A DNA stretch of 64,000 nt from contig OZ252226.1 in the NCBI GenBank assembly GCA_965249285.1, positions 1,465,360 through 1,529,359 on the forward strand. The letters run 5' to 3'. The notes under the pieces are model-generated. The model worked only from the letters and a program-made list of their open reading frames with translations. It was not told where the DNA came from and did no database searches. Numbering within the stretch: the first letter of the stretch is position 1; each line of letters starts with the position of its first letter. Below, in pieces: positions 1,530 to 58,231 of the stretch. The DNA is from Candidatus Foliamicus sp. (GTDB lineage: Bacteria; Pseudomonadota; Gammaproteobacteria; Steroidobacterales; Foliamicaceae). A program made the translations under genes and the position numbers.

Positions 1530-1673
1530 GTTGCTCTGTGCTCCCGCGTTTACCTGTACAGAGTGATTATTCCACAGCCGGGGCTGTTTGCCGCGCTGCA
1601 ATGCAACGGTTTAGGCAAGATATCGGCCTCGCTGCCTATTGCCGCGCACCATACCCCTTGCTTGGAACAAGCT

Positions 1674-1722
1674 GGAACGAGGGCATCTTGCCCTCGACGA
1701 GGGCGGGACGCCCTCGCTCCCG
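1674..1722. repeat. REP pair (head-to-head palindromic units)
   Basis: ggaacgagggcatcttgccctcgac + gacgagggcgggacgccctcgctccc, downstream of pncC. Confidence 0.8.
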
Positions 1723-1777
1723 GCGTGTCCCTTCGCGTCCGCGTCGCGGGAACAGAGGTAAATACTCGACACACGGT

Positions 1778-4846: not shown

Positions 4847-6946
4847 TTAAGCCTTTCCGAAGCCGCGGCCGGCGGCGGCCAGATCCACCAGCCGCTGCGC
4901 GGGAGCCCAGCGGGCGCCGAATCGCTCATGGAACGCGTGGATGTCCGCGAGCACCGGGGCCAGCCCCTGGTGATCCGCGTAGTGCATGGGACCGCCCCGC
5001 CAGGCCGGAAACCCATAGCCGTAGACGTACACGATGTCGATGTCGGATGCGGCCCTTGCCACCCCTTCCTCAAGCAGCTTGGCGCCGACGTTCACCAGCG
5101 GGTACATGCACCGCTTGACGATCTCTGTCGGCTCGGCGGCCGGGCCGGACCGATAGCCCATCTCTTCGGCCAGGCCCTCAATCAACCGGACCACCCCGGG
5201 ATCAGATTCGGGAACCCGGCTTCCGGGCCGATAGTTGTAAATGCCGTGGCGGTTCTTCTGCCCAAACCTTTCTCGCTCGCACAGCGCATCGCCCAGGCGC
5301 TCGCCCGGCTTGCGCTCGCCGACCGGCTTGCCGGCAAGTTTCCGGGCCCGCCAGCCGAGGTCCAGGCCCACCAGATCGGCCATCTGAAACGGCCCCATGG
5401 GCAAGCCGAATTCGCGCAGCACAGCATCGACTTGCTCCGCCGGCGTGCCTTCAAACAGCAGCTCGAAGGCTTCGAACATGTAATCGGTCAACATGCGGTT
5501 GCCGATAAAGCCGTGGCTGTTGGCAGACCAAACGGGGATCTTCTTCATCCGGGAAGCAAGCGCAAACGCGCAGGCGATAGTTTCCGGAGCGCTTTGCCGG
5601 CCCTGGATCACTTCCACCAGCCGCATGATGTTGGCCGGACTGAAGAAATGCATGCCCAGGACCTGCTCCGGCCTGCCGGTTGCATCCGCCATTCGGTCGA
5701 TGTCCAGATAGGAAGTATTGCTGGCGATAACCGTCTCTGCAGGCAGAATTTCGTCCAGGCGGGCGAAAATCTGCTTCTTGAGGTCGAGATTCTCGTAGAT
5801 CGCCTCAACGGCGAAGTCCGCTTCGGCCAGGGCAGCGTATTCCGTGGTGGGCGTAATCAGCCCCATGCAGCGTTGCGCGCCGCCGGGCGCCAGCCGGCCG
5901 CTTTTTTCCGACCGCTCGAAATTCTTGTGTACCACGCCCAGGCCCCGCTCCAGGGCCTCCTGGCTGGTCTCCAACACGGTCACCGGAATACCGGCGATGG
6001 CGAAGTTCATGGCGATGCCCCCGCCCATCGTTCCGCAACCCACCACCGCGGCGCGCTCAACCGGACGGGCCGAAGCGCCCCCGGCGCCCCTGAATACCGC
6101 GCGTTCGGCGAAGAACAGGTGCGAGAGCGCCGCGCTCTGCGGGTTCTTCAGGCAGCGTATGAAGCGGCGGCGCTCCTCGCCAAGCCCGGCCCTGAAATCG
6201 TCGCGGCAGGCCACCGCCTGCTCAATGCACTGCACGATCAGTTCCGGCGAGTCCCGGCCCCGCATCTTTCGGGCGATCAGGCCGCGGGCGGCCGCAAACG
6301 CCTCCGCCCCTTCGCCGGCTTCGGAAAGTTTCCCCGGACCCGAGGATATCTTGCGCAGCGGGCCATCCTGATCCAGCAACTCGCCGGCGTACACGCAGGC
6401 GGCCTCGGTCACGCTGCCTTCCAGCAACTGGTCGGCCAGGCCGATCTTCAAGGCCTGTTGCGTATCCACCGGCCTGCCGTCCAGGCACATGCGCAAAGCG
6501 TGCTCCACCCCGATCAGGCGCGGCGTTCGTTGCGTGCCTCCGGCGCCCGGCAGCAGGCCGATATTCACCTCGGGAAAGGCGAACCGGGCGCGGGAAGACA
6601 CCGCTCGATAGTCGCAGGCCAGGGCCAACTCCAGGCCGCCGCCGTAGGCCACCCCGCCGATCACCGCTACCACGGGCTTGGGACATGCGTCCAAGGCGTC
6701 GCACAGCGCCGTCAGAGACGCCTCCGGCGCCGGGAGCTCCTTCAGGCCGAACTCCTTGATGTCGGCGCCGGCGCACCAGGTCTTCAGGCCGCTAAGCAAT
6801 AACACCGCGCCTGCCGAGTCGTCCTGCGAAGCCGACTCGATTGCCGCCAGCAGCGGGGCGCGCAGCTTTGCCCCCAGGGCGTTGACCGGCGGAGAACCCA
6901 TTTCAATCAGCCGGATCCGGCCGCGATCACTCACCTTGACCGTCAT
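4847..6946 (-). CDS. bifunctional enoyl-CoA hydratase / 3-hydroxyacyl-CoA dehydrogenase (FadB/FadJ-like)
   Basis: 699 aa. The N-terminal half is crotonase-like (VNALG...CAGADIKEF). The central part has a Rossmann motif ([12 protein letters not shown]) and a 3-hydroxyacyl-CoA dehydrogenase C-terminal region. Confidence 0.85.
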
Positions 6947-6957
6947 GCGCCGCCTCC

Positions 6958-7045
6958 GTCCATTCGGCGAGGGCAGGATGCCCTCGTTCCCAAGCGTGTT
7001 TCCTGCGCATCAGCGCAGCGACGCCTGCTGCGAAAACTCCCAGCC
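6958..7045. repeat. REP unit plus conserved tail module, flanked by a 27-bp direct duplication (6931-6957 and 7046-7072)
   Basis: gcgagggcaggatgccctcgttccc is followed by ttcctgcgcatcagcgcagcgacgcctgctgcgaaaactcccagc. The flanking repeats are identical at 23 of 27 positions. Confidence 0.85.
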
Positions 7046-7057
7046 TCACCTTGAGTG

Positions 7058-8041
7058 TCATGCGCCGCTGCCTACTATTCTGAATACCCACTTGCCGGTT
7101 ACCTGACGATGGGCAAAGGCCTCATACGCTTGCATGTATTCCTCAAGCGGGAGCTCCCGGCCGATAGGGCAGCCGATGGCGCCGCCGGCCGCCAGCTCCG
7201 ACAGGGCACCAAGGTTTTCGCGCGCAACATCGGGATGCCGATCGGTCCACGGACCCCACAAAACGCCCAACACCGCGGCGGTCTTCAACAAGACCAGGTT
7301 CAGCGGCAGGCGCGGGATGGACCCGGCGGCGAATCCCACCACCAGGAAACGGCCGCCCGGCGCACAAGCGCGATAGGCTGATTCCGAATAGTCCCCGCCC
7401 ACCGGATCGACCACGACATCGACCCGGCCCCCGGCCAGCTTCTTCAGCCGGCCACGAAAATCGTCCTGGGTATAGTCGATGCATTCTTCAGCGCCCAGGG
7501 ACATTGCCAATTGGAGCTTGTCCTCGCTCCCGGCCGCGGCGATCACGTGGGCGCCCATGGCCTTCGCCAACGCTACGGCCGCCATTCCCACCCCTCCGCC
7601 GGCGCCCAGCACCAGCACGGTTTCGCCGGCTTGAAGGTCCGCAACCTGCTTGTAAGCGTGGTAGCAGGTACCGTACGTGATGCAAAAGCCGGCGCCCTGA
7701 GCAAAACTCATATTTCCCGGCAGGCGGGCCACATGATGGCGGGGAGCAACCGCCAGCTCGGCAAACATAGCCCGGCCGTGCATCGCAACCCGATCGCCTA
7801 CCGCCAGGTCCTCGACGCCTTCGCCGAGCGCCGCCACTACGCCGGCGGCCTCGCCCCCGGGAGTGAACGGAACTTCGGGACGGCGCTGATAGCGGCCCTG
7901 AACCATCAGCAGATCGAAGAAATTGAGGCCCGCGGCGCCCACCGCCACCAGCACCTCGCCCGGCGCCGGGGCCGGTTCCGGCGCCTCGCCCACAACAAGC
8001 TCCGGGCGCTCGGCGTAGCGGGTGCAAATCAGAGCGCGCAT
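7058..8041 (-). CDS. NADPH:quinone oxidoreductase / medium-chain (zinc-type) dehydrogenase family protein
   Basis: 327 aa with an MDR fold pattern (GEVLVAVGAAGLNFFD..., VLGAGGGVGMAAVALAKAMGA). Confidence 0.8.
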   Translation of the reverse strand: MRALICTRYAERPELVVGEAPEPAPAPGEVLVAVGAAGLNFFDLLMVQGRYQRRPEVPFTPGGEAAGVVAALGEGVEDLAVGDRVAMHGRAMFAELAVAPRHHVARLPGNMSFAQGAGFCITYGTCYHAYKQVADLQAGETVLVLGAGGGVGMAAVALAKAMGAHVIAAAGSEDKLQLAMSLGAEECIDYTQDDFRGRLKKLAGGRVDVVVDPVGGDYSESAYRACAPGGRFLVVGFAAGSIPRLPLNLVLLKTAAVLGVLWGPWTDRHPDVARENLGALSELAAGGAIGCPIGRELPLEEYMQAYEAFAHRQVTGKWVFRIVGSGA

Positions 8042-9395: not shown

Positions 9396-10343
9396 ATGAG
9401 CTCGCAAGACACTCGTGATCAAGGCAGTACCGGCTGGATGGCCGGAATTTTTGCGCGGCCGCCTTTTATCGGCCTGTTCCCGTTTGCGGTGTTCTTTTTG
9501 TCCCAGGGGCTAGGGCATGCGGTAATGATCCAGGTGGAGCGCGGCTTCGGGGCGCCGATCATGTATTACGCCGCCGGCGCCATGGGTTTGGTCGGCGCAG
9601 TGCTGCTTTGGATCGGCATGCGCCAGGACAGCGAGGTAAGCGCCACCTGGCTGGGTTATTTCGCCGCCTGGCTTATGTGGACCGGCTGGGTGGAGTTCTC
9701 GTTCGTTTACTACGCGCACTCGCTGGAGGTGGCGCCGTTGCTGGACGCGGCCGGCGAGATTGCTACCAAGCCGGAATACCTGGTAATGATGTCCTCGCTG
9801 GGCGTGATGCTGGCCACTCTGGTGTATTTCCTGTTCAACCGGGAAACGCGCTGCAATTTCTTCCGCTGGTTCCACCGCTGGCTGGGCTTGGGCACCGGCA
9901 AGCCCAGCGAAGGCCACAAGCGCAACTTCGCCGCCATCACGGCGCTGGAGACGATCTACCTGATCTGGTTCTTCTACCTGGCGCTGCTGCTGATTTACGA
10001 TGAAGCGGTGCTCGGCGACCAGCACCCGGTCACTTATGTCATCGCCTCGCTCAACGCGGTATGGGCGATCTTCCTGCTGCAGCGCCTGCTGCGCTTCCGC
10101 CGGGTAGCCACTGCGCTACGCTACTCGATTGCTACCGCCATAATTACCTGGAACGCGTACGAATTTGTCGGACGATGGGGCTGGGTCAACGATTTCTTTG
10201 TCCGGCCGGACAAGTACGGTTGGGAAATCACCGGTATTGCCGTGTTGTCGCTGGGAATCGTGGCCTTCTGCCTGTTCATGCCGGCGGGCAAACGCGAGCG
10301 CGAACGGGTGGCGGCGATGGAGCAGGAACTCAGCGCGAACTAG
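9396..10343 (+). CDS. polytopic inner-membrane protein of unknown function
   Basis: The ORF has about 8 hydrophobic segments and I recognise no family. The start could be 9363 or 9396. The TAG stop is formed by the first bases of the 10341-10611 element. Confidence 0.55.
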   Translation: MSSQDTRDQGSTGWMAGIFARPPFIGLFPFAVFFLSQGLGHAVMIQVERGFGAPIMYYAAGAMGLVGAVLLWIGMRQDSEVSATWLGYFAAWLMWTGWVEFSFVYYAHSLEVAPLLDAAGEIATKPEYLVMMSSLGVMLATLVYFLFNRETRCNFFRWFHRWLGLGTGKPSEGHKRNFAAITALETIYLIWFFYLALLLIYDEAVLGDQHPVTYVIASLNAVWAIFLLQRLLRFRRVATALRYSIATAIITWNAYEFVGRWGWVNDFFVRPDKYGWEITGIAVLSLGIVAFCLFMPAGKRERERVAAMEQELSAN

Positions 10344-10611
10344 TGTCGTGTCACACGTGTATCTTCGCATCAGAGCGTTCGTAGCGCGCCAATGCAAGGC
10401 GCAGCCCGCAGGGAATACTTTTTGCCGTATTGCCCAGGGCTGCAACGCCGCAGTGGCGCGCTACCAACGCTCCCGAAGGGCGCTTCTCCCTTGGCCCGTG
10501 GCGGCGTTGCGCCCCTGGGCAATGGGAGAGACGCCATTCCCGGCGGGACGCGCCCTGCCACGGACCAAGGGAGAAGCGCTGATGCGAAGATACAGGTGTG
10601 ACACGACACTA
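10341..10611. mobile_element. MITE-like non-autonomous element with 33-bp terminal inverted repeats and two internal hairpin modules
   Basis: Positions 10341-10373 (tagtgtcgtgtcacacgtgtatcttcgcatcag) are the reverse complement of 10579-10611 with 1 mismatch. Internal hairpins pair 10374-10391 with 10454-10471 and 10480-10502 with 10557-10579. There is no coding capacity and the flanks are TA. Confidence 0.6.
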
Positions 10612-14337: not shown

Positions 14338-14407
14338 CCCGGGAACGAGGGCGTCCTGCCTTCTTTCCCGAGCAGCGTGTCGAGGGCAGGATGCCCTCGT
14401 TCCCGGG
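14338..14407. repeat. REP pair forming a 70-nt palindrome between convergent genes
   Basis: cccgggaacgagggcgtcctgcc...gtcgagggcaggatgccctcgttcccggg. Confidence 0.8.
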
Positions 14408-22504: not shown

Positions 22505-22600
22505 GAGCGAGGGCGTCCCCGCTCCCCGATCAGCGTCGCGGACAGGCTCTCGTCGAGGGCAGGATGCCCTCGTTCCCAGGGGAGATGCCCTCGCTCCGGG
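22505..22600. repeat. REP cluster (three units, partly degenerate)
   Basis: gagcgagggcgtccccgctcc ... gtcgagggcaggatgccctcgttccc ... gagatgccctcgctcc. The string cgatcagc recurs at 22527 and 22602. Confidence 0.75.
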
Positions 22601-22604
22601 CCGA

Positions 22605-23279
22605 TCAGCCCTCCAGCGGTATCAGCGAGGCAACCCGCTTGATCCGGCCCTGCTTGCCCGGCGGGCCCAGAGTAATGCACGCCGCCGTGGGGCGCCTGAT
22701 TTCGTATTCGCCGACCGAGTAGCGGGCGTAGCGCCGGCGCAGGACATCTTCGCAAAGCAGTAGCCGGTAGTCGCGCTCCAGGTGACTGAACCGGACCCGC
22801 ACCACGTTGTCGTCGGAAACCGGCCGCCGCGTAACGTCCACAATGTAGTGGTCGAGTTCAATGAGCATTAGCGAAGATTCCAGTTCCATGGCCTCCGGGG
22901 CCAGCACGCGATCGTAGAAGCCAGCCTTCGTGGAGGTCATGTCCGACCATAACACCAGCGGCGACGAGCACAGATCGCCCAGCAATTCCCGTGGATAGGC
23001 CCCTACCTTGCGCCACCTGGGGCGATCCGCCACCCGCAGGTTCTCGGTTTGCGGTGGCTTGGGCGTAGCCTCTTCCACCGGCGCCGCAAAAATATCCAGC
23101 GGCCGGACCGGGGACTTGTTTCGGTAACGCACTGCGTTCAGCGACAGCGCACCCCCCTTTTCGGGGCCCTCCAGCCGTGCCCAGGATCCCAGGCTCTCGC
23201 CGTCAAAATGCACTGCAGCCACCCGCAGGCCGCCTGCGACTTCATAGCGCGCTAAACACAGAAATTGTCTGATGTCCAC
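22605..23279 (-). CDS. hypothetical protein (no family recognised)
   Basis: 224-aa ORF with GC-typical codon usage and no TM segment or signal peptide. It fills the gap between the REP cluster and rluC. Confidence 0.5.
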   Translation of the reverse strand: MDIRQFLCLARYEVAGGLRVAAVHFDGESLGSWARLEGPEKGGALSLNAVRYRNKSPVRPLDIFAAPVEEATPKPPQTENLRVADRPRWRKVGAYPRELLGDLCSSPLVLWSDMTSTKAGFYDRVLAPEAMELESSLMLIELDHYIVDVTRRPVSDDNVVRVRFSHLERDYRLLLCEDVLRRRYARYSVGEYEIRRPTAACITLGPPGKQGRIKRVASLIPLEG

Positions 23280-24316: not shown

Positions 24317-24561
24317 AATCGTCGGCGTTGCGCACTGGCGCCCGCGCAGATACTTGCGCCAGCGGCAACACCTATTGCCGAATCTGTTTTCTAATGCGGC
24401 GGAGGAACGCCGGTCTTACCGGATGGATTTCCAAGACAAGAACGCGCCAAGGGTCACATTCCTGATGAATGACCTGATTGCGTACTGCCGCCGGCGCGGT
24501 CTCGGTGCAGCGCTGTGCGCGGCTGCGGCATGGTTCCGCCCGAACCTGGACAAAAATCACA

Positions 24562-26493
24562 ATGAGAAGAATGCTAGTAAACGCCACCCAGCAAGAAGAG
24601 GTGCGCGTTGCTTTGGTCGATGGGCAACAACTTTATGACCTTGCCATTGAACATCGAGAAAAAGAACAAAAGAAAGGCAACATCTACAAGGGGCGCATTG
24701 CGCGAGTAGAACCCAGTCTTGAGGCTGCGTTTGTTGATTTCGGCGCAGAGCGCCACGGTTTTCTCCCCTTAGAGGACATATCCCGCGAGTACTTTCTGGG
24801 GACGCCGGAACCCGGCAAACCCCTGAACATTGCCGAGCTGGTGAAGGAAGGCCAGCAGCTGGTGGTGCAGGTCGAGAAAGACGAGAGGGACAACAAGGGC
24901 GCCGCGCTGAGCACCCTGGTCTCCCTGGCCGGCCGTTACCTGGTACTGAATGCCAACAACCCACGCGGTGGGGGCGTATCCCGCCAGGTCCGAGGCGAGG
25001 ACCGCCAGGCGGTGCAGCAGCGCCTGGGCAACCTCAATATTCCCAAGGGCATGAGCGTAATCATCCGCACCCAGGGTCACGACCGGGGTGGCGAGGAACT
25101 GCAATGGGACCTGGACAACCAGCTGCGGATATGGGAGGCCATCAAGCTCGCAGTGCTGGAGCGCGACGGCCCTTTCCTGGTGGTGCAGGAATCCAACGTG
25201 ATTCTGCGTGCGGTGCGGGACTATCTCTCCGACTCAATCGGGGAAATCGTAGTGGACGACGACGAAGCCTACGAGAGCATCCGCAGTTTCATGAAGCACA
25301 CCATGCCGCACTTTCTGGACCGCCTGCGGCGGCATGAGGACGACGGGCCGCTGTTCAACCGCTACCAGATCGAAAGCCAGATCGACACCGCGTATCGGCG
25401 CCGCGTCAACCTGCCCTCCGGCGGCCAGATCATCATTGACCAGCCGGAGGCCGGCATTTGCATCGACGTCAATTCCGCGCGCGCCACGTCGGCGGAGGAC
25501 ATCGAGCAGACTGCGCTGCAAACCAACCTGGAGGCCGCCGACGAAATCGCCCGTCAGTGCCGGATCCGCGATTTATCGGGGCTGCTGATGATCGACTTTA
25601 TCGATATGCGCTCCGCCGGATCCAACCGGCAGGTGGAGGATCGGCTGCGCCAGGGCACCCGCAACGAACCGGCGCGGATACAGATCGGACAGATTTCGCG
25701 CTTCGGCATCCTGGAAATGTCGCGCCAACGCTTGCGCACGTCGCTGGTCGATACGACTCACGAGACCTGTCCGCGATGCGGCGGTACCGGGCGAATTCGC
25801 GGTGTGGAGTCACTAGGCCTGCACGTGCTGCGGATGATCAGCGAAGAAGCGGGCAAGGAACGCACCTCGAAGGTGGTGGCGGAACTGCCACTGGTTGTGG
25901 CGAACTTTCTTCTGAACGAGAAGCGATCCGCCCTGACGCAAATCGAGGACGTATACATGGTCAGCGTGGTTCTGGTTGCCAATTCCGCCATGGAGACACC
26001 CGAGTTCGCTTTGCGGCGGGTGCGCGACAATACCGATGACGAAACCCCCAGTTACGAATTGGCAACCGTGACGGCCCCGCCCCCTGCCAATCTTGCACCC
26101 AGCCGCGGCAAACCGCCGGAAAAGCCGGCGGTAGAGCGCTCCCTGCCTGATACCGCGCCGCCCGAGCACAAGGCCAAGGCCGCCAAGAAGCCAGACCGCA
26201 AGAAGAAGAAAAAGCCGAAGGTTGGATTTTTTGCTCGTCTGTTCGGGCGGAACAAGAAAAAGAAAACTCCGGCCAGGCAACCTGCCAGGAAGGCTCAGCC
26301 GCAACAACGCTCTCGGCCGCAACGCAAGGCAAAGCAGCCGCCGAAACACCAGGGCGGACCCAGGAACAAGGCGCAGGGCGAATCGCAGGCGCCCCGCCGC
26401 AAGGAATCCGAATCCGGCAACGGTCATCCTCCGCGCAGGCGCAGGCGCAGGCGCCGCAGGCGCCCCGGGAGCGACGCCCCGCCGTCGTCCTGA
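24562..26493 (+). CDS. rne: ribonuclease E (short form, 643 aa)
   Basis: It starts MRRMLVNATQQEEVRVALVDGQQLYDL and has an S1 domain, a DNase I-like domain and the CPRCGGTG zinc link. The basic tail ends in RRRRRRRRRR. I chose the ATG at 24562 rather than 24478. Confidence 0.92.
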   Translation: MRRMLVNATQQEEVRVALVDGQQLYDLAIEHREKEQKKGNIYKGRIARVEPSLEAAFVDFGAERHGFLPLEDISREYFLGTPEPGKPLNIAELVKEGQQLVVQVEKDERDNKGAALSTLVSLAGRYLVLNANNPRGGGVSRQVRGEDRQAVQQRLGNLNIPKGMSVIIRTQGHDRGGEELQWDLDNQLRIWEAIKLAVLERDGPFLVVQESNVILRAVRDYLSDSIGEIVVDDDEAYESIRSFMKHTMPHFLDRLRRHEDDGPLFNRYQIESQIDTAYRRRVNLPSGGQIIIDQPEAGICIDVNSARATSAEDIEQTALQTNLEAADEIARQCRIRDLSGLLMIDFIDMRSAGSNRQVEDRLRQGTRNEPARIQIGQISRFGILEMSRQRLRTSLVDTTHETCPRCGGTGRIRGVESLGLHVLRMISEEAGKERTSKVVAELPLVVANFLLNEKRSALTQIEDVYMVSVVLVANSAMETPEFALRRVRDNTDDETPSYELATVTAPPPANLAPSRGKPPEKPAVERSLPDTAPPEHKAKAAKKPDRKKKKKPKVGFFARLFGRNKKKKTPARQPARKAQPQQRSRPQRKAKQPPKHQGGPRNKAQGESQAPRRKESESGNGHPPRRRRRRRRRRPGSDAPPSS

Positions 26494-26539
26494 GGGACAT
26501 CAGCCGCTTAAATGTGTTCGGCGGTGAGCCAGCCGTCGG

Positions 26540-26683
26540 GCTTATAGGTGGCGAAGGCAGGATGCCCTCGCTCCTATGGAACAACCTGGGAACGAGGGCT
26601 TCCAGCCCTCGACGACGGCAGGATGCCCTCGCTCCATTGTTCCCTGCGCGTCAGCTTAGCGGCGCCTGCTGCGAAAACTCCCA
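26540..26683. repeat. 144-nt composite element (three REP units plus tail module), flanked by a 34-bp direct duplication (26506-26539 and 26684-26717)
   Basis: By my hand alignment it is roughly 85% identical over about 135 nt to 57158-57293. The flanking repeats are identical at 32 of 34 positions. Confidence 0.85.
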
Positions 26684-26685
26684 GC

Positions 26686-27345
26686 TTAGATGAGTTCGGC
26701 GGTGAGCCAGCCGTCGGACTGCCAATGCGACACTTGCATCTCCACGCCCATGCTCTCGGCATAGGCGAGCAGGCGGGGACGGGTCCAGTTCTCGTGTATC
26801 CACTCCTCGCTAAAGTCGAACTGCCCCAGCTTGCGGCAGGCGGCCAGTACCCGGCCAAAGGGTGAACGCCAGCGCCGCATGCCGGGGCTGGATTCGTTGT
26901 CCAGACAGAGTTGATAGTGACAGGCAGTGCGATCGAAAATCCCGATCAAGGCAATTTCGCGCTGACCGGTCTTTTCAATAAGGCCTCTCATGCGCTCGTT
27001 CAGGGGCTCCATGGTCTTGATGTCGTGAGCCACGAACTCGTCCATCATCCCGTGGTCCTTGGCGAACTGCATGGCCTGAAGGTGCGCCTTGATCAGCGCA
27101 TCGTTAATCTCGTGGGCATAGGGCTGGGTGTTCCTGAGCGTCTTCAGCACTACCGCCATGGACTTACCGAGTTCCTCTTCGCGGCCCTCAAGCCCGCTTT
27201 GGGCGCCGGCGAACGCGCCGGGCGGCGGACCTTCCGATACGCCGGGCGGCGGGCCGCCTGCTACTCCGGGCGGAGGACCGCCCGCGGACTGCGGCCGGGG
27301 GCCGGCAATCGGCCCGGTCTCTTTGCGTAATGGTTGAACGCTCAT
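26686..27345 (-). CDS. hypothetical protein with an N-terminal Pro/Gly-rich repeat region
   Basis: 219-aa ORF. The N-terminus has GGPPPGV-type repeats and I do not recognise the globular C-terminal part. Its last 10 codons are duplicated 178 bp downstream. Confidence 0.5.
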   Translation of the reverse strand: MSVQPLRKETGPIAGPRPQSAGGPPPGVAGGPPPGVSEGPPPGAFAGAQSGLEGREEELGKSMAVVLKTLRNTQPYAHEINDALIKAHLQAMQFAKDHGMMDEFVAHDIKTMEPLNERMRGLIEKTGQREIALIGIFDRTACHYQLCLDNESSPGMRRWRSPFGRVLAACRKLGQFDFSEEWIHENWTRPRLLAYAESMGVEMQVSHWQSDGWLTAELI

Positions 27346-41859: not shown

Positions 41860-41882
41860 ACACAAGCTGATCCGGAGCGAGG

Positions 41883-41938
41883 CAAAGGAGCGAGGGCATC
41901 CTGCCCTCGACGAGGGCGAGACGCCCTCGTTCCCAGCG
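41883..41938. repeat. REP pair flanked by a 20-bp direct duplication (41863-41882 and 41939-41958)
   Basis: ggagcgagggcatcctgccctcgac + gacgagggcgagacgccctcgttccc. The flanks are caagctgatccggagcgagg and caagctaatccggagcgagg. Confidence 0.85.
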
Positions 41939-41942
41939 CAAG

Positions 41943-42746
41943 CTAATCCGGAGCGAGGGCGAGACGCCCTGCTCCAGCGCTCCCATCGGGGGGATCGGAA
42001 TCCGAAATCCAGCGATTGATCAGTTGGCGGGCACGCTCAAGCGCCGAGTCCAGCCAAGTCCGGTGCTGGGCGTGAATGCCGGCGGTTTCGCCCGCTGCTT
42101 CCCGGCCTGCGGCGCAGTTCGTCACCAGCGAGAGTGAAACATAAGGGATACTGAGTTCACGCGCGAGCACGGCCTCCGGCATCAAAGTCATTCCGACCAG
42201 GGTGCAACCGTCGCGCTCCAGCCGGTCGATTTCCGCAGCGGTCTCCAGGCGCGGACCCTGCATAACTCCGTATACCCCCTGGGCAAGACAGCCCGTATTC
42301 ACCGCAGCCGCTGCCAGACCCTCCCGCATTTCGGGATCGAAGGGAACGGCGAATGCAATGAACGCGCTTTTTCCTGCGCCCTCCTCCGTGAAACTGGTTG
42401 CGCGCGAGTGCGTGTAGTCGATCAGGTCATGAGGTATGGCGACCGTCCCCGGAACGGCATCGGGCGCAATGCCGCCCACGGAATGCACGCCGAGGACGCA
42501 TTGCGCCCCCGCATCGGCCAGCGCATGCAGGTTTGCCCGGTAGTTGATTCGATGTGGCGCGATAGCGTAGTCCTCGCCATGCCGGTTCAGGAACAGGACC
42601 TCGATCCGATTGAGCCGGCGAATCTCCACGGGTGCGGAAGGCCGGCCATAGGGCTGACCTCCTTCCGGCGCCAGCCCTTCCTTCCTACCCAGACCCAAAC
42701 GCTCCGGCGGGACCCCGGAAATCAGCGCAAGCCCGTCAATCCGCAT
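41943..42746 (-). CDS. S-methyl-5'-thioadenosine/thioinosine phosphorylase family (PNP type)
   Basis: 267 aa with ...FLNRHGEDYAIAPHRINYRANLHALADAGAQCVLGVHSVGGI.... It lies next to nagZ as in P. aeruginosa. The last roughly 8 codons lie in a REP-like unit. Confidence 0.8.
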   Translation of the reverse strand: MRIDGLALISGVPPERLGLGRKEGLAPEGGQPYGRPSAPVEIRRLNRIEVLFLNRHGEDYAIAPHRINYRANLHALADAGAQCVLGVHSVGGIAPDAVPGTVAIPHDLIDYTHSRATSFTEEGAGKSAFIAFAVPFDPEMREGLAAAAVNTGCLAQGVYGVMQGPRLETAAEIDRLERDGCTLVGMTLMPEAVLARELSIPYVSLSLVTNCAAGREAAGETAGIHAQHRTWLDSALERARQLINRWISDSDPPDGSAGAGRLALAPD

Positions 42747-44378: not shown

Positions 44379-45302
44379 TTATGCCGCCTGCTCTTCCTGG
44401 ACAGCCCCCTTCGGCGAAGGGTCCGGGGCTGAGGCTTTCTGGTCGGAACTCTGCTTCGGCGAAGGGTCCGGGGCCGGAGCTTCCTGATCGGAACTCTCTT
44501 CCGGGGCGCCTTCTCCCGGCCCGTCCGCTTCCGCCTCCAACTTACCGGCAAAGGCCTTCAAGTGATCTTCGCTGCTGGCTTTCAGCACGTCAATCAGCAG
44601 CCCGTACTCTTCGTCCAGATTGTCTTGCGTCAGGTTGCCTCGCAAGTATTGGAAATGCAGGAACACCAGATAGGTATTCAGCGCGTCCTCAAGACAGTAG
44701 CGGCGAATGTCGCCGATCCTGCCGTCCAAGTAGGCGCCCATCACCGATGATCCATCCATCAGGTTCTTGCCGGGCAAGCCAAGCAAGGCGCAGGCCTCGC
44801 GCAGGCTGGGACGGCCCCGGCCCTGAAATCCGGATAGGGCATCCATGAGATCCGTATGGCGCCAATGGAAACGCGACAGATAGTTGTTGAAGCGGAAGAC
44901 ACGGTCGTTCACGCCGGTTTCCCAATAGGTCTTCGCCTGCACCTCGTAGCGAAGCGCTCGAAAGTTCAGAACCGGCAGGTCGAACGCCGCCCCATTCCAG
45001 GTAACCAGATCGGGCACATAGTGTCCCAGGCCGCGGAAAAACCGCATGATCAGTTCCGATTCCTTGGCGTCTTCGTCTCCCAGCACCAGCGGCCGCACGC
45101 CCTCATCATTGCGGAGCACCACCGCAATCGCCACCACTTTGTGCTGTATGGGCGGAAGAAATTCCAGACCGGTGCGCTGCTGATAGTGATGCTGCATAGC
45201 GCGCATCACCTCGCCGTCGTCCAGGTCATCGAGTCCGTATAGCGATCGCCCTAGTTCAGGATCCGGTACCGTCTCAATGTCGAAAATCAGTTGCGCACTC
45301 AT
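44379..45302 (-). CDS. predicted 3'-5' exonuclease related to the PolB exonuclease domain
   Basis: [10 protein letters not shown] (Exo I), ...LVTWNGAAFDLPVL (Exo II) and ...YCLEDALNTY (Exo III-like). The C-terminus carries a 15-aa tandem repeat. I chose the ATG at 45302. Confidence 0.7.
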   Translation of the reverse strand: MSAQLIFDIETVPDPELGRSLYGLDDLDDGEVMRAMQHHYQQRTGLEFLPPIQHKVVAIAVVLRNDEGVRPLVLGDEDAKESELIMRFFRGLGHYVPDLVTWNGAAFDLPVLNFRALRYEVQAKTYWETGVNDRVFRFNNYLSRFHWRHTDLMDALSGFQGRGRPSLREACALLGLPGKNLMDGSSVMGAYLDGRIGDIRRYCLEDALNTYLVFLHFQYLRGNLTQDNLDEEYGLLIDVLKASSEDHLKAFAGKLEAEADGPGEGAPEESSDQEAPAPDPSPKQSSDQKASAPDPSPKGAVQEEQAA

Positions 45303-45696
45303 CGCTTGCTCCCCCACTTCCAGTAACAAGTATCGCCGTTGCCACTACCAGGCCGGCTTCATCAGTCAAACTCAAGTGGCCACCGGATATTCCGGCGGCC
45401 GCGCACGCCGCCCTGCCGCGTGGCGAAAAAATAATTTCCGGGCGGCCTCGCCTATCGTGCCGGACTCCGGAATCGCGGACCCACATGCCGTGGCGAAAAC
45501 CCGTGCCCAGGGCCTTTACGATCGCCTCTTTAGCCGCGAAACGCATGGCGAGAAAGCGCACCGGGTTCTTGGCGCCGAGGAAGTCCCGCTGCTCGGAATC
45601 CATCAGCACGCGGCGCGCAAACCGATCGCCGAAGCGCCGGTACACACGATCCACCCTGTCAATTCGCAGCAGGTCCGTTCCTATGCCGTAAATCAT
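45274..45696 (-). CDS. acpS: holo-[acyl-carrier-protein] synthase
   Basis: [15 protein letters not shown]...[12 protein letters not shown]. The pdxJ-acpS order supports the call. Confidence 0.9.
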
Positions 45697-57030: not shown

Positions 57031-57135
57031 GCGGTAGTTCTTCAGACCGTATCAAAGCGAACTATTGTACTCTGATTTCGCGAGCAACACGGTTTTTCGC
57101 CGTTCCATCTCGAAAATAATTCCGCGCACAATCCG

Positions 57136-57293
57136 CCCTGGAGGGAGGGCATCCTGCCCTCCGAGGACGGGGCGTCCTCGCTTGCATGGAACAACCTGGG
57201 AACCAGGGCTTCCAGCCCTCGCCGAGGGCAAGATGCCCTCGCTCCATTGCTTCCTGGCGTCAGCGCAACGGCGCCCGCTGCGAAAACCCTCAG
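57136..57293. repeat. composite REP element (four units plus tail module) between truB and rpsO
   Basis: ggagggagggcatcctgccctcc, gacggggcgtcctcgc, gggaaccagggcttccagccctcg and gagggcaagatgccctcgctcc are followed by the tail ...gtcagcgcaacggcgcccgctgcgaaaaccctcag. It is homologous to 26540-26683. Confidence 0.85.
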
Positions 57294-57298
57294 GAGGC

Positions 57299-58231
57299 TC
57301 AGCCCACCTGCGGAGTGCCCTGGGCCTTGAGCAGACGGCGCGGCGCAACCTGGCCGTCCAGGGTGGCTTCGCCGATCCCGATGAAGCCCTGGGTTCCCGC
57401 ATACAAGCGAACCGGACCGGGGCGCATCCCGTGGGCCGCAGCCACCGGATTCCCGCGCTGCAGGTAAAAGCTTTCACTGGACGACAGCTGCACGGCCGGC
57501 AACCCTTCGACGGCGGCATCGGCCGGCAACAGCAGCGCATCGAGCGCCGAATGCCCGCGACCGGCGCAGGCCTTCAACCGCTCCATGGTCACCATGCCGG
57601 ACGCTTCAAAAGGCGCGACGCTGAGACGCCTGAGAGCGCTTACGCAGGCAACCGAGCCAGCCGCCTCGGCAATATCTTCGACCAGGGTCCGGATATACAC
57701 GCCGCTGCCGCAAGCTACCGTGAATACCGGCGCGGAAGGCGAGTATTCATCCAACTCAAGGCGGTGAATGACAACGCGCCGGGGAGCGCGCTCCACTGTC
57801 TTGCCGGCGCGAGCCAATTTGTAGAGGCGCCTGCCCTTGTGCTTGAGCGCCGAATACATGGGCGGAACCTGCTCGATTTCGCCGCTAAAGCGCCCGAGAA
57901 CCTCCTCGAGCCGCGCTCGGCTTAGCTGTCCGTCGGCGGTCTCAAGAACGGTCGTCCCGGTTGTATCGCCGGTGTCGGTCTTGCGCCCGATCCGGGCGGT
58001 GACCCGGTACAACTTTTCCGCCTTGAGCAGAAAACCCGACAACTTGGTGGCTTCGCCCAGGCATACCGGCAACATGCCGGTGGCGATGGGATCAAGGCTG
58101 CCCGTGTGGCCTGCCTTGCGGGCCGCAAACAGCCGCTTGACCCGCTGCAGCGCGGCGTTGGAGGTCAAACCGGCAGGCTTGTCGAGCAGCAGCAGTCCAG
58201 CGACGTCGCGCCGGTTCCGGTCAGGCGTCAT
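57299..58231 (-). CDS. truB: tRNA pseudouridine(55) synthase
   Basis: GLLLLDKPAGLTSN...GHTGSLDPIATGMLPVCLGEATK is the TruB catalytic Asp motif. Confidence 0.93.
   Translation of the reverse strand: MTPDRNRRDVAGLLLLDKPAGLTSNAALQRVKRLFAARKAGHTGSLDPIATGMLPVCLGEATKLSGFLLKAEKLYRVTARIGRKTDTGDTTGTTVLETADGQLSRARLEEVLGRFSGEIEQVPPMYSALKHKGRRLYKLARAGKTVERAPRRVVIHRLELDEYSPSAPVFTVACGSGVYIRTLVEDIAEAAGSVACVSALRRLSVAPFEASGMVTMERLKACAGRGHSALDALLLPADAAVEGLPAVQLSSSESFYLQRGNPVAAAHGMRPGPVRLYAGTQGFIGIGEATLDGQVAPRRLLKAQGTPQVG

What the first reader, a model, noticed from the sequence alone, without database searches (positions are those of the whole stretch)
26506..26717. Composite REP element bracketed by a 34-bp direct duplication that copies the 3' end (with stop codon) of a gene
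The string gcttaaatgtgttcggcggtgagccagccgtcgg (26506-26539) recurs as gcttagatgagttcggcggtgagccagccgtcgg (26684-26717), 32 of 34 identical and 178 bp apart. The right copy is the real 3' end of the 26686-27345 gene (...DGWLTAELI*). The left copy still reads ...DGWLTAEHI* on the same strand, only 12 nt from the rne stop. The 144 nt between them is a composite of three GAGGGCA/TGCCCTC hairpin units and a tail module, and it has a close homologue at 57136-57293. This looks like a filled insertion site with an unusually long target duplication. To my knowledge, REP/BIME or REPIN mobility via RAYT-type transposases is not expected to produce target duplications, and classical MITEs make 2-10 bp ones. 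The mechanism behind this family may therefore be undescribed.
Basis: seen in the sequence. Interest (0 to 1): 0.62.

Follow-up and report, generated by a model that had tools for sequence, protein, structure and literature searches.

The report
REP inserts with long target duplications
In a Candidatus Foliamicus-like bacterium, small palindromic (REP-type) repeats sit at gene boundaries between two copies of a 20-37-base piece of the gene end they split. Known REP mobility does not explain this footprint, which lets the repeats enter overlapping or abutting genes without destroying them.

Summary
26506-26539 and 26684-26717 match at 32/34 (34/37 when extended). The motif is unique in the window, and the right copy is the real 3' end and stop of a 219-aa gene. 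The 34-mer is target sequence, not an element terminus: other copies of the element lack it, and relatives carry it only at the orthologous gene end.

The pattern recurs. At 6930-6965/7045-7080 a 36-nt duplication brackets another array. It splits an ATGA stop/start overlap that is intact and single-copy in a 98%-identical relative and in an 85% one. Shorter or decayed cases occur at 41.9 kb, in L019 (25 nt) and at an AlaS end (9-13 nt).

An 88% relative has both copies with only one REP hairpin between them, so the 144-nt composite is not the duplicating unit. The duplication is old, and the 32/34 identity reflects gene conversion. One composite copy inserted with no duplication at all.

Best reading: REP-family DNA entered staggered breaks, about 36 bp apart at the two clearest sites. 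Selection kept events where each copy retains a needed stop or start. The enzyme is unknown.

Verdict: a new variant of a known kind, of moderately high interest.

The parts
26506..26539 (.). Left (non-coding) copy of the duplicated target at site E. It extends to 26542 at 34/37.
   Evidence: Orthologous decayed copies are present in L120 and L242.
26540..26551 (.). 12-nt spacer of unknown origin between the left copy and the first REP hairpin. It is conserved in L120, and an 11-nt counterpart is present in L242.
26552..26574 (+). Head REP hairpin (CGAAGGCAGGATGCCCTCGCTCC). In relative L242 it is the only family unit between the two copies.
26575..26683 (+). REPIN-like doublet (GGAACAA...TTGTTCC long hairpin) plus a 3' tail ending GCGAAAACTCCCA. 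It is absent from L242 and homologous to 57181-57292, 1661-1768, and copies in L019, L022 and L244.
26684..26717 (-). Right copy of the duplicated target. It is the functional 3' end and stop codon of the 219-aa gene.
26686..27345 (-). Conserved hypothetical gene (219 aa, no Pfam match) whose 3' end was duplicated.
24478..26493 (+). rne (RNase E/G family) ORF. It converges on the 219-aa gene, and its stop is at 26491-26493. The 24478 start is the mechanical ORF start; the real start is probably later.
   Evidence: Pfam families in the syntenic loci.
6930..6965 (.). Site B, left copy of a 36-nt target duplication. It holds the ribosome-binding site and the ATG (6944-6946, minus strand) of the 699-aa FadB-like gene, and lies 2 nt from the REP hairpin.
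6966..7044 (+). Site B insert: one REP hairpin (6968-6986) plus the tail module. It is absent from L244 (98% identical DNA) and L246, and is replaced by a larger array in L245.
7045..7080 (.). Site B, right copy (29/36 identical to the left copy). It holds the stop (7058-7060, minus strand) of the 327-aa quinone oxidoreductase gene, overlapping a now unused ATG.
41863..41958 (.). Site H: a 20-nt direct repeat (41863-41882 and 41939-41958, 19/20) around a REP pair. It derives from a CTAG stop/stop overlap of two convergent genes that is intact in L248. The second copy supplies the stop of 41943..42746(-).
1661..1768 (+). Site A: a REPIN-like element with a degenerate tail, inserted without any target duplication. 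The site is empty in L246.
57139..57294 (+). Site I: the close homologue of the composite, lying between truB and rpsO. No flanking duplication was detected.
22505..22609 (.). Site D: a REP array carrying a window-specific 25-nt patch. The patch is an imperfect copy (ccgatcagc at 22526-22534) of the adjacent gene end (22601-22609).

Best explanation
The locus is an old, filled insertion site of a lineage-specific REP/REPIN-like repeat family.

REP-family DNA, at minimum one 27-nt hairpin with short flanks, was joined into a staggered double-strand break. The two nicks lay about 34-37 bp apart and spanned the last 11 codons and the stop of the 219-aa gene. Filling in the two single-stranded overhangs produced two copies of that stretch, so the gene kept an intact end on the right and a redundant copy was left beside the rne stop.

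The same process split the ATGA stop/start overlap at 7 kb. There one copy keeps the upstream gene's stop and the other keeps the downstream gene's start.

Insertions at gene boundaries survive only when the duplication spans the boundary, which is why long duplications are seen there.

Afterwards the arrays were remodelled. REPIN-like tail-bearing units were added or lost by REP-REP recombination. The two target copies were occasionally homogenised by gene conversion. Whole inserts were lost or exchanged between strains.

Shown:
- the duplicated DNA is target DNA;
- the insert sits exactly at the junction of the two copies;
- empty alleles carry one copy;
- the pattern recurs at independent sites;
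- gene conversion and array remodelling occurred.

Inferred:
- the staggered break and fill-in;
- which unit was inserted first;
- the enzyme, which is unknown.
For: 1. The 34-37-nt pair is real and unique. Its core is found elsewhere only at the orthologous gene end.
2. REP-free relative L243 has a single copy and a 45-nt gap between the stops. L242, L120 and the window share the duplication and the left spacer.
3. Site B is a clean test. L244 (98% identical DNA) and L246 have one 36-38-nt copy with the two genes overlapping at ATGA. The window and L245 have two copies with a REP array exactly between them.
4. Of the long non-tandem local direct repeats in 64 kb, three bracket REP arrays: 37, 36 and 20 nt. 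A 30-nt pair at 73% that touches a REP arm (14238/14333) looks like chance.
5. In a flank test over 13 arrays, sites B and E score 36 and 59 against a null maximum of 20. L019 gives a third case of 25 nt that contains the accA stop.
6. Sites H and J also duplicate stop-codon junctions when compared with empty alleles.
7. In each case the insert lies at the exact copy/copy junction. By my estimate, a REP landing by chance in a pre-existing tandem duplication would do this in about 1/20 of cases at site B and 1/48 at site E.
Against: - A family copy at 1.6 kb inserted with no duplication, and the 57-kb copy shows none. The duplication is therefore not an obligatory product of every family insertion.
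- Duplication lengths differ between sites: 36-37, 25, 20 and 9-13 nt.
- All duplications are old and diverged. No fresh event with identical copies was seen, so the original inserted unit cannot be read directly.
- L242's single-REP state could instead be a deletion derivative, through CTCC...CTCC microhomology.
- No transposase, RAYT or integrase gene lies in the window ORFs checked or in the syntenic gene tables. The rest of the genome could not be searched.
- Replication template switching would leave the same footprint.
Confidence: 0.5

Rival explanations
1. Copy-choice or break-induced template switching, with no dedicated enzyme. A nascent strand stalled near a gene end switches to a REP-family locus elsewhere, copies part of it, and returns to the original template upstream of where it left. 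This re-copies 0-40 nt. Selection then filters the outcomes at gene boundaries.
For: - Duplication lengths vary and include zero: 0, 9-13, 20, 25 and 36-37 nt.
- Filler of unknown origin sits at the left junction of site E, and inside the right copy in L019.
- A window-specific 25-nt imperfect templated patch of the neighbouring gene end lies inside a REP arm at 22.5 kb.
- REP-unit copy number changes between near-identical strains.
- The REPs are strong hairpins.
Against: - The right junction is the same in independent copies...GCGAAAACTCC[C/T][A/G]G, then target. This suggests a defined element end.
- The two clearest events in one genome have nearly the same length, 36 and 37 nt, which suggests a ruler.
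- Junction microhomology at site B is only 1-2 nt.
Confidence: 0.2
2. A two-step origin. A short tandem duplication of the gene boundary arose first by slippage, creating a dispensable spacer. A REP, mobilised by an ordinary mechanism that makes no duplication (such as a RAYT), landed in it later.
For: - Tandem duplications do arise in this genome (families D2, D7 and D11).
- REP arrays grow by tandem duplication of REP-plus-flank units.
- A family copy can insert without any duplication.
Against: - At sites B and E the insert lies exactly at the copy/copy junction. By my estimate this has a combined chance of about 1 in 1000 if landing were random among tolerated positions.
- No REP-free tandem duplicate of either target was found in any relative. 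Empty alleles have one copy.
- No other gene-boundary tandem duplicates appear in the window scan.
Confidence: 0.08
3. Off-target integration by a CRISPR Cas1-Cas2-type integrase. This enzyme duplicates a repeat-length stretch of target on each side of a spacer-sized insert. Here the captured fragment would have been a REP hairpin, later expanded by REP-REP exchange.
For: - The two clearest duplications are 36 and 37 nt, within the range of CRISPR repeat lengths.
- The minimal insert, in L242, is about 34-37 nt, which is spacer-sized.
- One relative carries a cas3 gene near ligA.
- Off-target genomic integration by Cas1-Cas2 has been reported (cited in PMC7054753). That it duplicates a repeat-length target is from my own knowledge.
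Against: - The inserted DNA is a member of the same repeat family at every site.
- Other sites have 0, 9-13, 20 or 25-nt duplications.
- No CRISPR array or cas1 gene lies in any DNA held, so the repeat length could not be compared.
- The inserts in the window are 79 and 144 nt.
Confidence: 0.07
4. A SINE-like retroelement inserted by target-primed reverse transcription. The constant tail would be the 3' end where cDNA synthesis starts. The left end would be variably truncated, and the second nick would fall at a variable distance.
For: - The right end is constant.
- The left end and content vary: tail only at 41.0 kb, one REP plus tail at 7 kb, and the full unit elsewhere.
- Target duplications vary in length and include none.
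Against: - No reverse transcriptase was seen in any held locus.
- REP-REP recombination explains the left-end variation, as seen in L245 versus the window and L244 versus L245.
- L242 has the duplication without the tail body.
- No such bacterial element is known.
Confidence: 0.04
5. The left copy is kept for a function. For example, it could be a 34-nt antisense segment in the rne 3' UTR that pairs with the end of the convergent 219-aa gene's mRNA, so the high identity would reflect selection.
For: The window's left copy is 32/34 identical to the right copy, although its orthologues have diverged. The left copy lies directly after the rne stop.
Against: The left copy is strongly decayed in L120 (21/34 to its own right copy) and in L242 (27/36). 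It is absent in L243 and L250. No promoter-like or terminator-like signal is present, and there is no Rfam match.
Confidence: 0.03

Closest known systems
REP/BIME arrays and REPIN-RAYT systems of proteobacteria
   Same: - Short GC-rich extragenic palindromes are present in many copies: 18 core hits in 64 kb against 1.2 expected.
- They occur as singlets, inverted doublets that form a long hairpin, and mosaic arrays.
- They lie at gene ends.
- The family is lineage-specific and absent from relatives at about 80% identity.
   Different: - There is no conserved GT[A/G]G head next to the palindrome, a defining feature in PMC3686654.
- A 45-nt non-palindromic tail module is present.
- Some arrays are flanked by 20-37-nt target duplications, whereas IS200/IS605-type Y1 enzymes make none (PMC2817692).
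- No RAYT was seen, though the genome could not be searched.
IS1549/IS1634 (IS1634 family)
   Same: These elements produce long target duplications of variable length, 8-514 bp, with no accepted mechanistic model (PMC2266710).
   Different: They are 1.5-2 kb elements that encode a DDE transposase. Here the inserts are 34-144-nt non-coding hairpin repeats, and no such transposase is in view.
Bacterial MITEs
   Same: The elements are small, non-coding, structured and interspersed, they are polymorphic between strains, and they carry flanking direct repeats.
   Different: MITE duplications are short and of fixed length. The unrelated MITE in this same window shows the classical pattern: 265 nt, 30-nt terminal inverted repeats and CTAG on both sides. 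The REP family shows 0 to 37 nt and has no terminal inverted repeats beyond the hairpin itself.
Mycobacterial MIRUs (own knowledge: Supply et al. 1997)
   Same: Repeats are inserted at stop/start overlaps inside operons, in a way that keeps a stop for the upstream gene and a start for the downstream gene. Site B does the same.
   Different: MIRUs are 46-101-bp tandem units that are not palindromic REPs. The junction is part of each unit rather than a duplication of host target.
CRISPR spacer integration by Cas1-Cas2
   Same: The geometry is repeat-length duplication (about 36-37 nt) on both sides of a spacer-sized insert, as in the L242 state.
   Different: The insert is always a REP-family sequence, duplication lengths vary between sites, and no CRISPR-Cas adaptation genes or arrays are in view.

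Membership tests
REP/REPIN-RAYT | A short imperfect palindrome repeated many times in extragenic space. | tested here: met
   The core GATGCCCTCGCTCC gives 18 hits against 1.24 expected. Hairpin arms were found, and the fold has z = -3.6.
REP/REPIN-RAYT | REPIN architecture: two REPs in inverted orientation forming a long hairpin. | tested here: met
   The stretch GGAACAACCTGGGAACGAGGGC...GCCCTCGCTCCATTGTTCC folds as one 66-nt hairpin. It is conserved in the copies at 57 kb and in L019, L022 and L244.
REP/REPIN-RAYT | A conserved 5' GT[A/G]G tetranucleotide next to the palindrome (PMC3686654). | tested here: not met
   The flanks are GGAA/GGAG-CGAGGGC. No GTAG or GTGG appears in any copy read.
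REP/REPIN-RAYT | A cognate single-copy RAYT gene flanked by the REPs. | not testable with these tools
   No Y1 transposase family appears among the ORFs checked or in the gene tables of the syntenic loci.
REP/REPIN-RAYT | Insertion without target duplication (IS200/IS605-type chemistry, PMC2817692). | tested here: inconclusive
   Met at site A. Not met at sites B, E, H and J or in L019.
MITE | Terminal inverted repeats that match a parent insertion sequence. | tested here: not met
   The composite's ends (CGAGGGCAGG... and ...GCGAAAACTCCCAG) are not inverted repeats. No parent insertion sequence is in view.
MITE | A short target duplication of fixed length. | tested here: not met
   Duplications are 0, 9-13, 20, 25 and 36-37 nt.
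IS1634-family-mobilised element | Long target duplications of variable length. | tested here: met
   compared with 8-514 bp in PMC2266710.
IS1634-family-mobilised element | An IS1634-family DDE transposase in the genome, with ends matching the element. | not testable with these tools
None is present in the held loci of this species, and the DDE genes in L247 lie in an unrelated island.
Cas1-Cas2 off-target integration | Duplication length equal to the host's CRISPR repeat length, with a spacer-sized insert. | not testable with these tools
   The duplications are 36-37 nt and the L242 insert is about 34-37 nt. No CRISPR array is in any held DNA.
Non-LTR (target-primed) retroelement | A reverse transcriptase source, a constant 3' end, 5' truncation and a variable target duplication. 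| tested here: inconclusive
   A constant right end and variable duplications are seen. Left-end variation is explained by REP-REP recombination. The presence of a reverse transcriptase is not testable.

The most novel reading that the evidence does not exclude
This REP/REPIN-like family, or its single-hairpin head, spreads by an integration chemistry not described for REP-type repeats. That chemistry cuts the target with a very long stagger, about 36-37 bp at the two best sites and shorter or none elsewhere. Alternatively it primes synthesis at the target. Either way the element carries its own 'gene-end insurance': it can enter stop/start overlaps and the last codons of essential genes without inactivating them.
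Probability: 0.3. Interest if true: 0.75.

Novelty: new variant of a known kind. Interest (0 to 1): 0.58.

Why it matters
How REPs and REPINs get into new sites is still largely inferred, and the accepted Y1/RAYT chemistry predicts no target duplication. A REP-type family that repeatedly shows 20-37-nt duplications of the gene ends it splits, verified against empty alleles, gives a concrete footprint from which the insertion mechanism can be worked out.

It also explains how such repeats can colonise sites that should be forbidden. Examples are a 4-nt ATGA stop/start overlap inside an operon, a CTAG stop/stop overlap of convergent genes, and the last 11 codons of a gene.

There is a practical point for annotation as well. 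The redundant copies mimic gene ends and starts, so gene callers mis-start or extend ORFs. One caller started the FadB-like gene inside the array in L245 (727 aa instead of 699), and another called a 245-aa product at this locus in L242.

Tried and rejected
1. Pattern scans of genome contigs and metagenome contigs for the tail module. Only two true copies were recovered, L019 and L022, both in Candidatus Foliamicus MAG chromosomes. A viral-contig scan found nothing.
2. Exact look-up of the 219-aa protein found no record.
3. Rfam gave only sub-threshold chance hits, MIR169_6 and HCV_SL588. No promoter-like or terminator-like sites were found.
4. 'The 34-mer is an element terminus' is rejected.
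5. 'Chance or assembly artefact' is rejected. The copies are diverged and are shared by independent assemblies.
6. A REP remnant left of the left copy (tGAGGGaCATCagCC after the rne stop), which would allow a simple REP-plus-flank tandem duplication, is rejected because it is not conserved in L242 or L121.
7. A hidden decayed duplication at the 57-kb copy was not found, p about 0.65.
8. 'L244's empty allele at 7 kb is a recent deletion from the window's allele' is rejected. Its single copy differs from both window copies (32/38 and 30/38) while the flanks are 98% identical, and it is closest to copy 1 of L245 (35/38). This suggests an old polymorphism with allele exchange.
9. L250 (81% relative) gave only a decayed REP and no readable duplicate.
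10. Literature searches found no description of REP-type elements with long target duplications and nothing on Foliamicus.
Full report
**1. The observation**

26506-26539 and 26684-26717 are 32/34 identical and 178 nt apart. An ungapped extension reaches 37 nt at 34/37. The 24-nt core occurs exactly twice in the window even with three mismatches allowed, against none expected.

The right copy is the 3' end of ORF 26686-27345(-) and ends ...DGWLTAELI*. The left copy begins 12 nt after the rne stop at 26491-26493 and would read ...DGWLTAEHI*.

Between the copies lie three REP-type units and a tail. This stretch folds better than all 200 shuffles as single-stranded DNA. The homologue at 57.1 kb is 97/113 identical over the shared part.

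An unbiased scan of all 64 kb for local direct repeats puts this pair first among non-tandem pairs.

**2. The repeat family**

- The core GATGCCCTCGCTCC occurs 18 times in the window, against 1.2 expected.
- The tail ...CGNCGCCYGCTGCGAAAAC occurs four times: at 7.0, 26.7, 41.0(-) and 57.3 kb.
- The family has three building blocks:
  - a 27-nt hairpin, GGAGCGAGGGCA-N3-TGCCCTCGCTCC;
  - a REPIN-like inverted doublet that folds into one 66-nt hairpin;
  - a 45-nt tail ending GCGAAAACTCC[C/T][A/G]G.
- There is no Rfam match and no promoter-like or terminator-like signal.

The only true copies recovered from public genomes are in two 'Candidatus Foliamicus sp.' MAG chromosomes, L019 and L022. Homologues of window proteins are also named Foliamicus. 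A cluster member of the 219-aa protein sits on a contig whose length equals that of OZ253475.1. The window therefore very likely comes from this gammaproteobacterial genus.

Relatives at about 80% DNA identity, L243 and L249, have no REPs of this family.

**3. Is the 34-mer target or element?**

It is target. No other copy of the element carries it. Among all 251 fetched loci its core occurs only at the orthologous gene end, in L120, L242 and L243.

**4. The orthologous locus in relatives**

| Locus | Relatedness | State at the rne / 219-aa gene junction |
|---|---|---|
| L243 | protein 79% | REP-free: 45 nt between the two stops, one copy |
| L120 | DNA about 93% | Same composite as the window; left copy decayed (21/34 to its own right copy) |
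| L242 | DNA about 85% | Both copies and an 11-nt counterpart of the left spacer; only CGAGGGCAGGATGCCCTCG + CTCCCAG between them |
| L121 | protein 74% | A different insert; perhaps a stub of the left copy |
| L250 | protein 81% | A decayed REP; no readable copy |

Two consequences follow.

- The 105-nt REPIN-plus-tail body is not needed for the duplication.
- The duplication predates the split of lineages that are 85% identical.

The window's left copy is closer to its own right copy (32/34) than to the orthologous left copies (24/34 and 25/36). L242's two copies share c...c at two positions where both window copies have t...t. The simplest reading is gene conversion between the copies.

**5. 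The decisive second site (7 kb)**

While reading the other tail copies I found a second bracketed array. The ORF map shows what was split. The 327-aa quinone oxidoreductase gene ends at 7058-7060(-), and its TGA overlaps an ATG. The 699-aa FadB-like gene starts at 6944-6946(-).

In L244, which is 98% identical to the window in DNA, and in L246 (about 85%), the two genes overlap by ATGA. There is also a single copy of the 36-38-nt stretch.

In the window, 6930-6965 and 7045-7080 (29/36 identical) bracket a REP hairpin plus tail. The left copy lies 2 nt from the hairpin, and the right copy follows ...AAAACTCCCAGC directly.

L245 (about 92%) is filled at the same position with a larger array, REP plus two REPIN-like units, between the same two copies.

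Each gene keeps one intact end. The copies are mosaics between genomes: the 3' part of the window's copy 1 equals that of L245's copy 2. L244's single copy is closest to L245's copy 1 (35/38), although the flanks of the window and L244 are 98% identical right up to the site. This is an old polymorphism with conversion and allele exchange, not a fresh insertion.

**6. Other sites**

- **Site H, 41.9 kb.** L248 is empty. Two convergent genes share a CTAG stop overlap. The window has a 20-nt repeat (41863-41882 and 41939-41958, 19/20) around a REP pair. The repeat derives from that junction. The phosphorylase-family gene now runs through a REP to a stop in the second copy.
- **Site J, AlaS/GCS2 spacer in L244 and L245, empty in L246.** A 9-13-nt repeat, cgtctcMag, covers the AlaS stop region. 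Its right copy starts exactly at the element's end.
- **L019.** A 25-nt repeat contains the accA stop. The right copy is interrupted by 23 nt of filler.
- **Site D, 22.5 kb.** A window-specific 25-nt patch inside a REP arm is an imperfect copy of the neighbouring gene end.
- **Site C, 14.3 kb.** A 31-nt REP unit varies in copy number between the window and L244.
- **Site A, 1.6 kb.** L246 is empty, and the comparison shows a clean 108-nt insertion with no duplication.
- **Site I, 57 kb.** No duplication was found, and truB has a different C-terminal tail from L249.

In a flank-versus-flank test over 13 arrays, sites E and B score 59 and 36 against a null maximum of 20, and L019 scores 20.

**7. 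Mechanism**

At sites B and E the insert sits exactly at the junction of the two copies. By my estimate, a REP landing at random in a pre-existing tandem duplicate would do that in about 1/20 and 1/48 of tolerated positions. Duplication and insertion are therefore most likely a single event, as in a target-site duplication made by filling in a staggered break.

The two best cases are 36 and 37 nt, which hints at a ruler. Other sites show 0-25 nt, which argues against a universal one.

The right junction is constant and the left is variable, but REP-REP recombination demonstrably remodels the arrays.

I therefore commit to 'staggered-break insertion of REP-family DNA with long fill-in, filtered by selection at gene boundaries' at about 0.5. 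The rivals are:

- replication template switching, about 0.2;
- a two-step origin, about 0.08;
- Cas1-Cas2-type off-target integration, about 0.07. The geometry fits the L242 state and one relative has cas3, but no array or cas1 could be examined;
- a target-primed retroelement, about 0.04;
- a functional antisense copy, about 0.03.

**8. Comparison with what is known**

The family behaves like REP/BIME/REPIN repeats in form and location, but it fails one defining feature, the GT[A/G]G head. At several sites it also conflicts with the expectation of no duplication for IS200/IS605-type enzymes.

It is not a classical MITE. A real MITE in the same window shows the textbook pattern.

Long, variable duplications have a precedent in IS1549/IS1634. 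Preserving stop/start overlaps recalls mycobacterial MIRUs (own knowledge).

I found no report of REP-type repeats with long target duplications. That is absence of evidence in an open-access library, not proof.

**9. Verdict**

The finding is a new variant of a known kind, with a real chance (about 0.3) that the underlying integration chemistry is undescribed for this class.

The main limitation is that all events seen are old and the genomes could not be censused.

Noticed in passing
window 10344-10608 (CTAG at 10340-10343 and 10609-12): A classical 265-nt MITE with about 30-nt terminal inverted repeats (tgtcgtgtcacacgtgtatcttcgcatcag...). It is flanked by CTAG and inserted at the TAG stop of the upstream gene. 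It is absent from L244, L245 and L246. Other copies lie in L246 (opposite window 4817) and in L120 (next to the 22.5-kb REP array).
   Followed up: partly
window 41943-42010: The PNP_UDP_1-family gene 41943..42746(-) has a C-terminal extension of about 17 aa that is translated through a REP hairpin, ending at a stop in a duplicated junction copy. The L248 orthologue ends earlier, at a CTAG shared with the convergent CsiV-family gene.
   Followed up: partly
window 57031-57301: The truB-rpsO spacer is 267 nt here but 23 nt in L249. Sequence homologous to L249's last truB codons now lies non-coding on the far side of the REP composite, and truB has a different 11-aa tail. This may be an insertion inside the gene end without duplication.
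   Followed up: partly
window 14340-14407 versus L244: REP array copy-number variation between 98%-identical genomes. L244 has one extra 31-nt unit (REP + ctcccaggttt). L246 has partial tandem units.
   Followed up: partly
window 22520-22545: A window-specific 25-nt patch (tccccgatcagcgtcgcggacaggc) interrupts a REP arm. It is an imperfect copy of the DuOB-family gene end 70 nt away and is absent in L120 and L242.
   Followed up: partly
window 44409-44498: A 45-nt tandem duplication (87% identical) lies inside the 3' part of ORF 44379..45329(-), a coding 15-aa repeat. It is not associated with REPs.
   Followed up: no
window 27216-27263 and 26430-26470: The 219-aa gene has a Pro/Gly-rich 24-nt tandem repeat near its N-terminus and no Pfam match. 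The rne product ends in an Arg-rich run (RRRRRRRRRR) encoded by GCGCAGGCGC repeats.
   Followed up: no
L247 and L248 (relatives, around ligA): Strain-specific islands flank ligA in relatives. They carry Fic, HigB-like and HipA toxin genes, an integrase, DDE transposases (DDE_Tnp_1, IS1595) and a cas3 gene. They are absent from the window and contain no REPs of the family.
   Followed up: no
L245 11184 and L242 10001-10738: Gene callers are misled by the duplicated gene ends. The FadB-like gene is called 727 aa, starting inside the REP array, in L245. The 219-aa gene's orthologue is called 245 aa, running to 24 nt from the rne stop, in L242.
   Followed up: no
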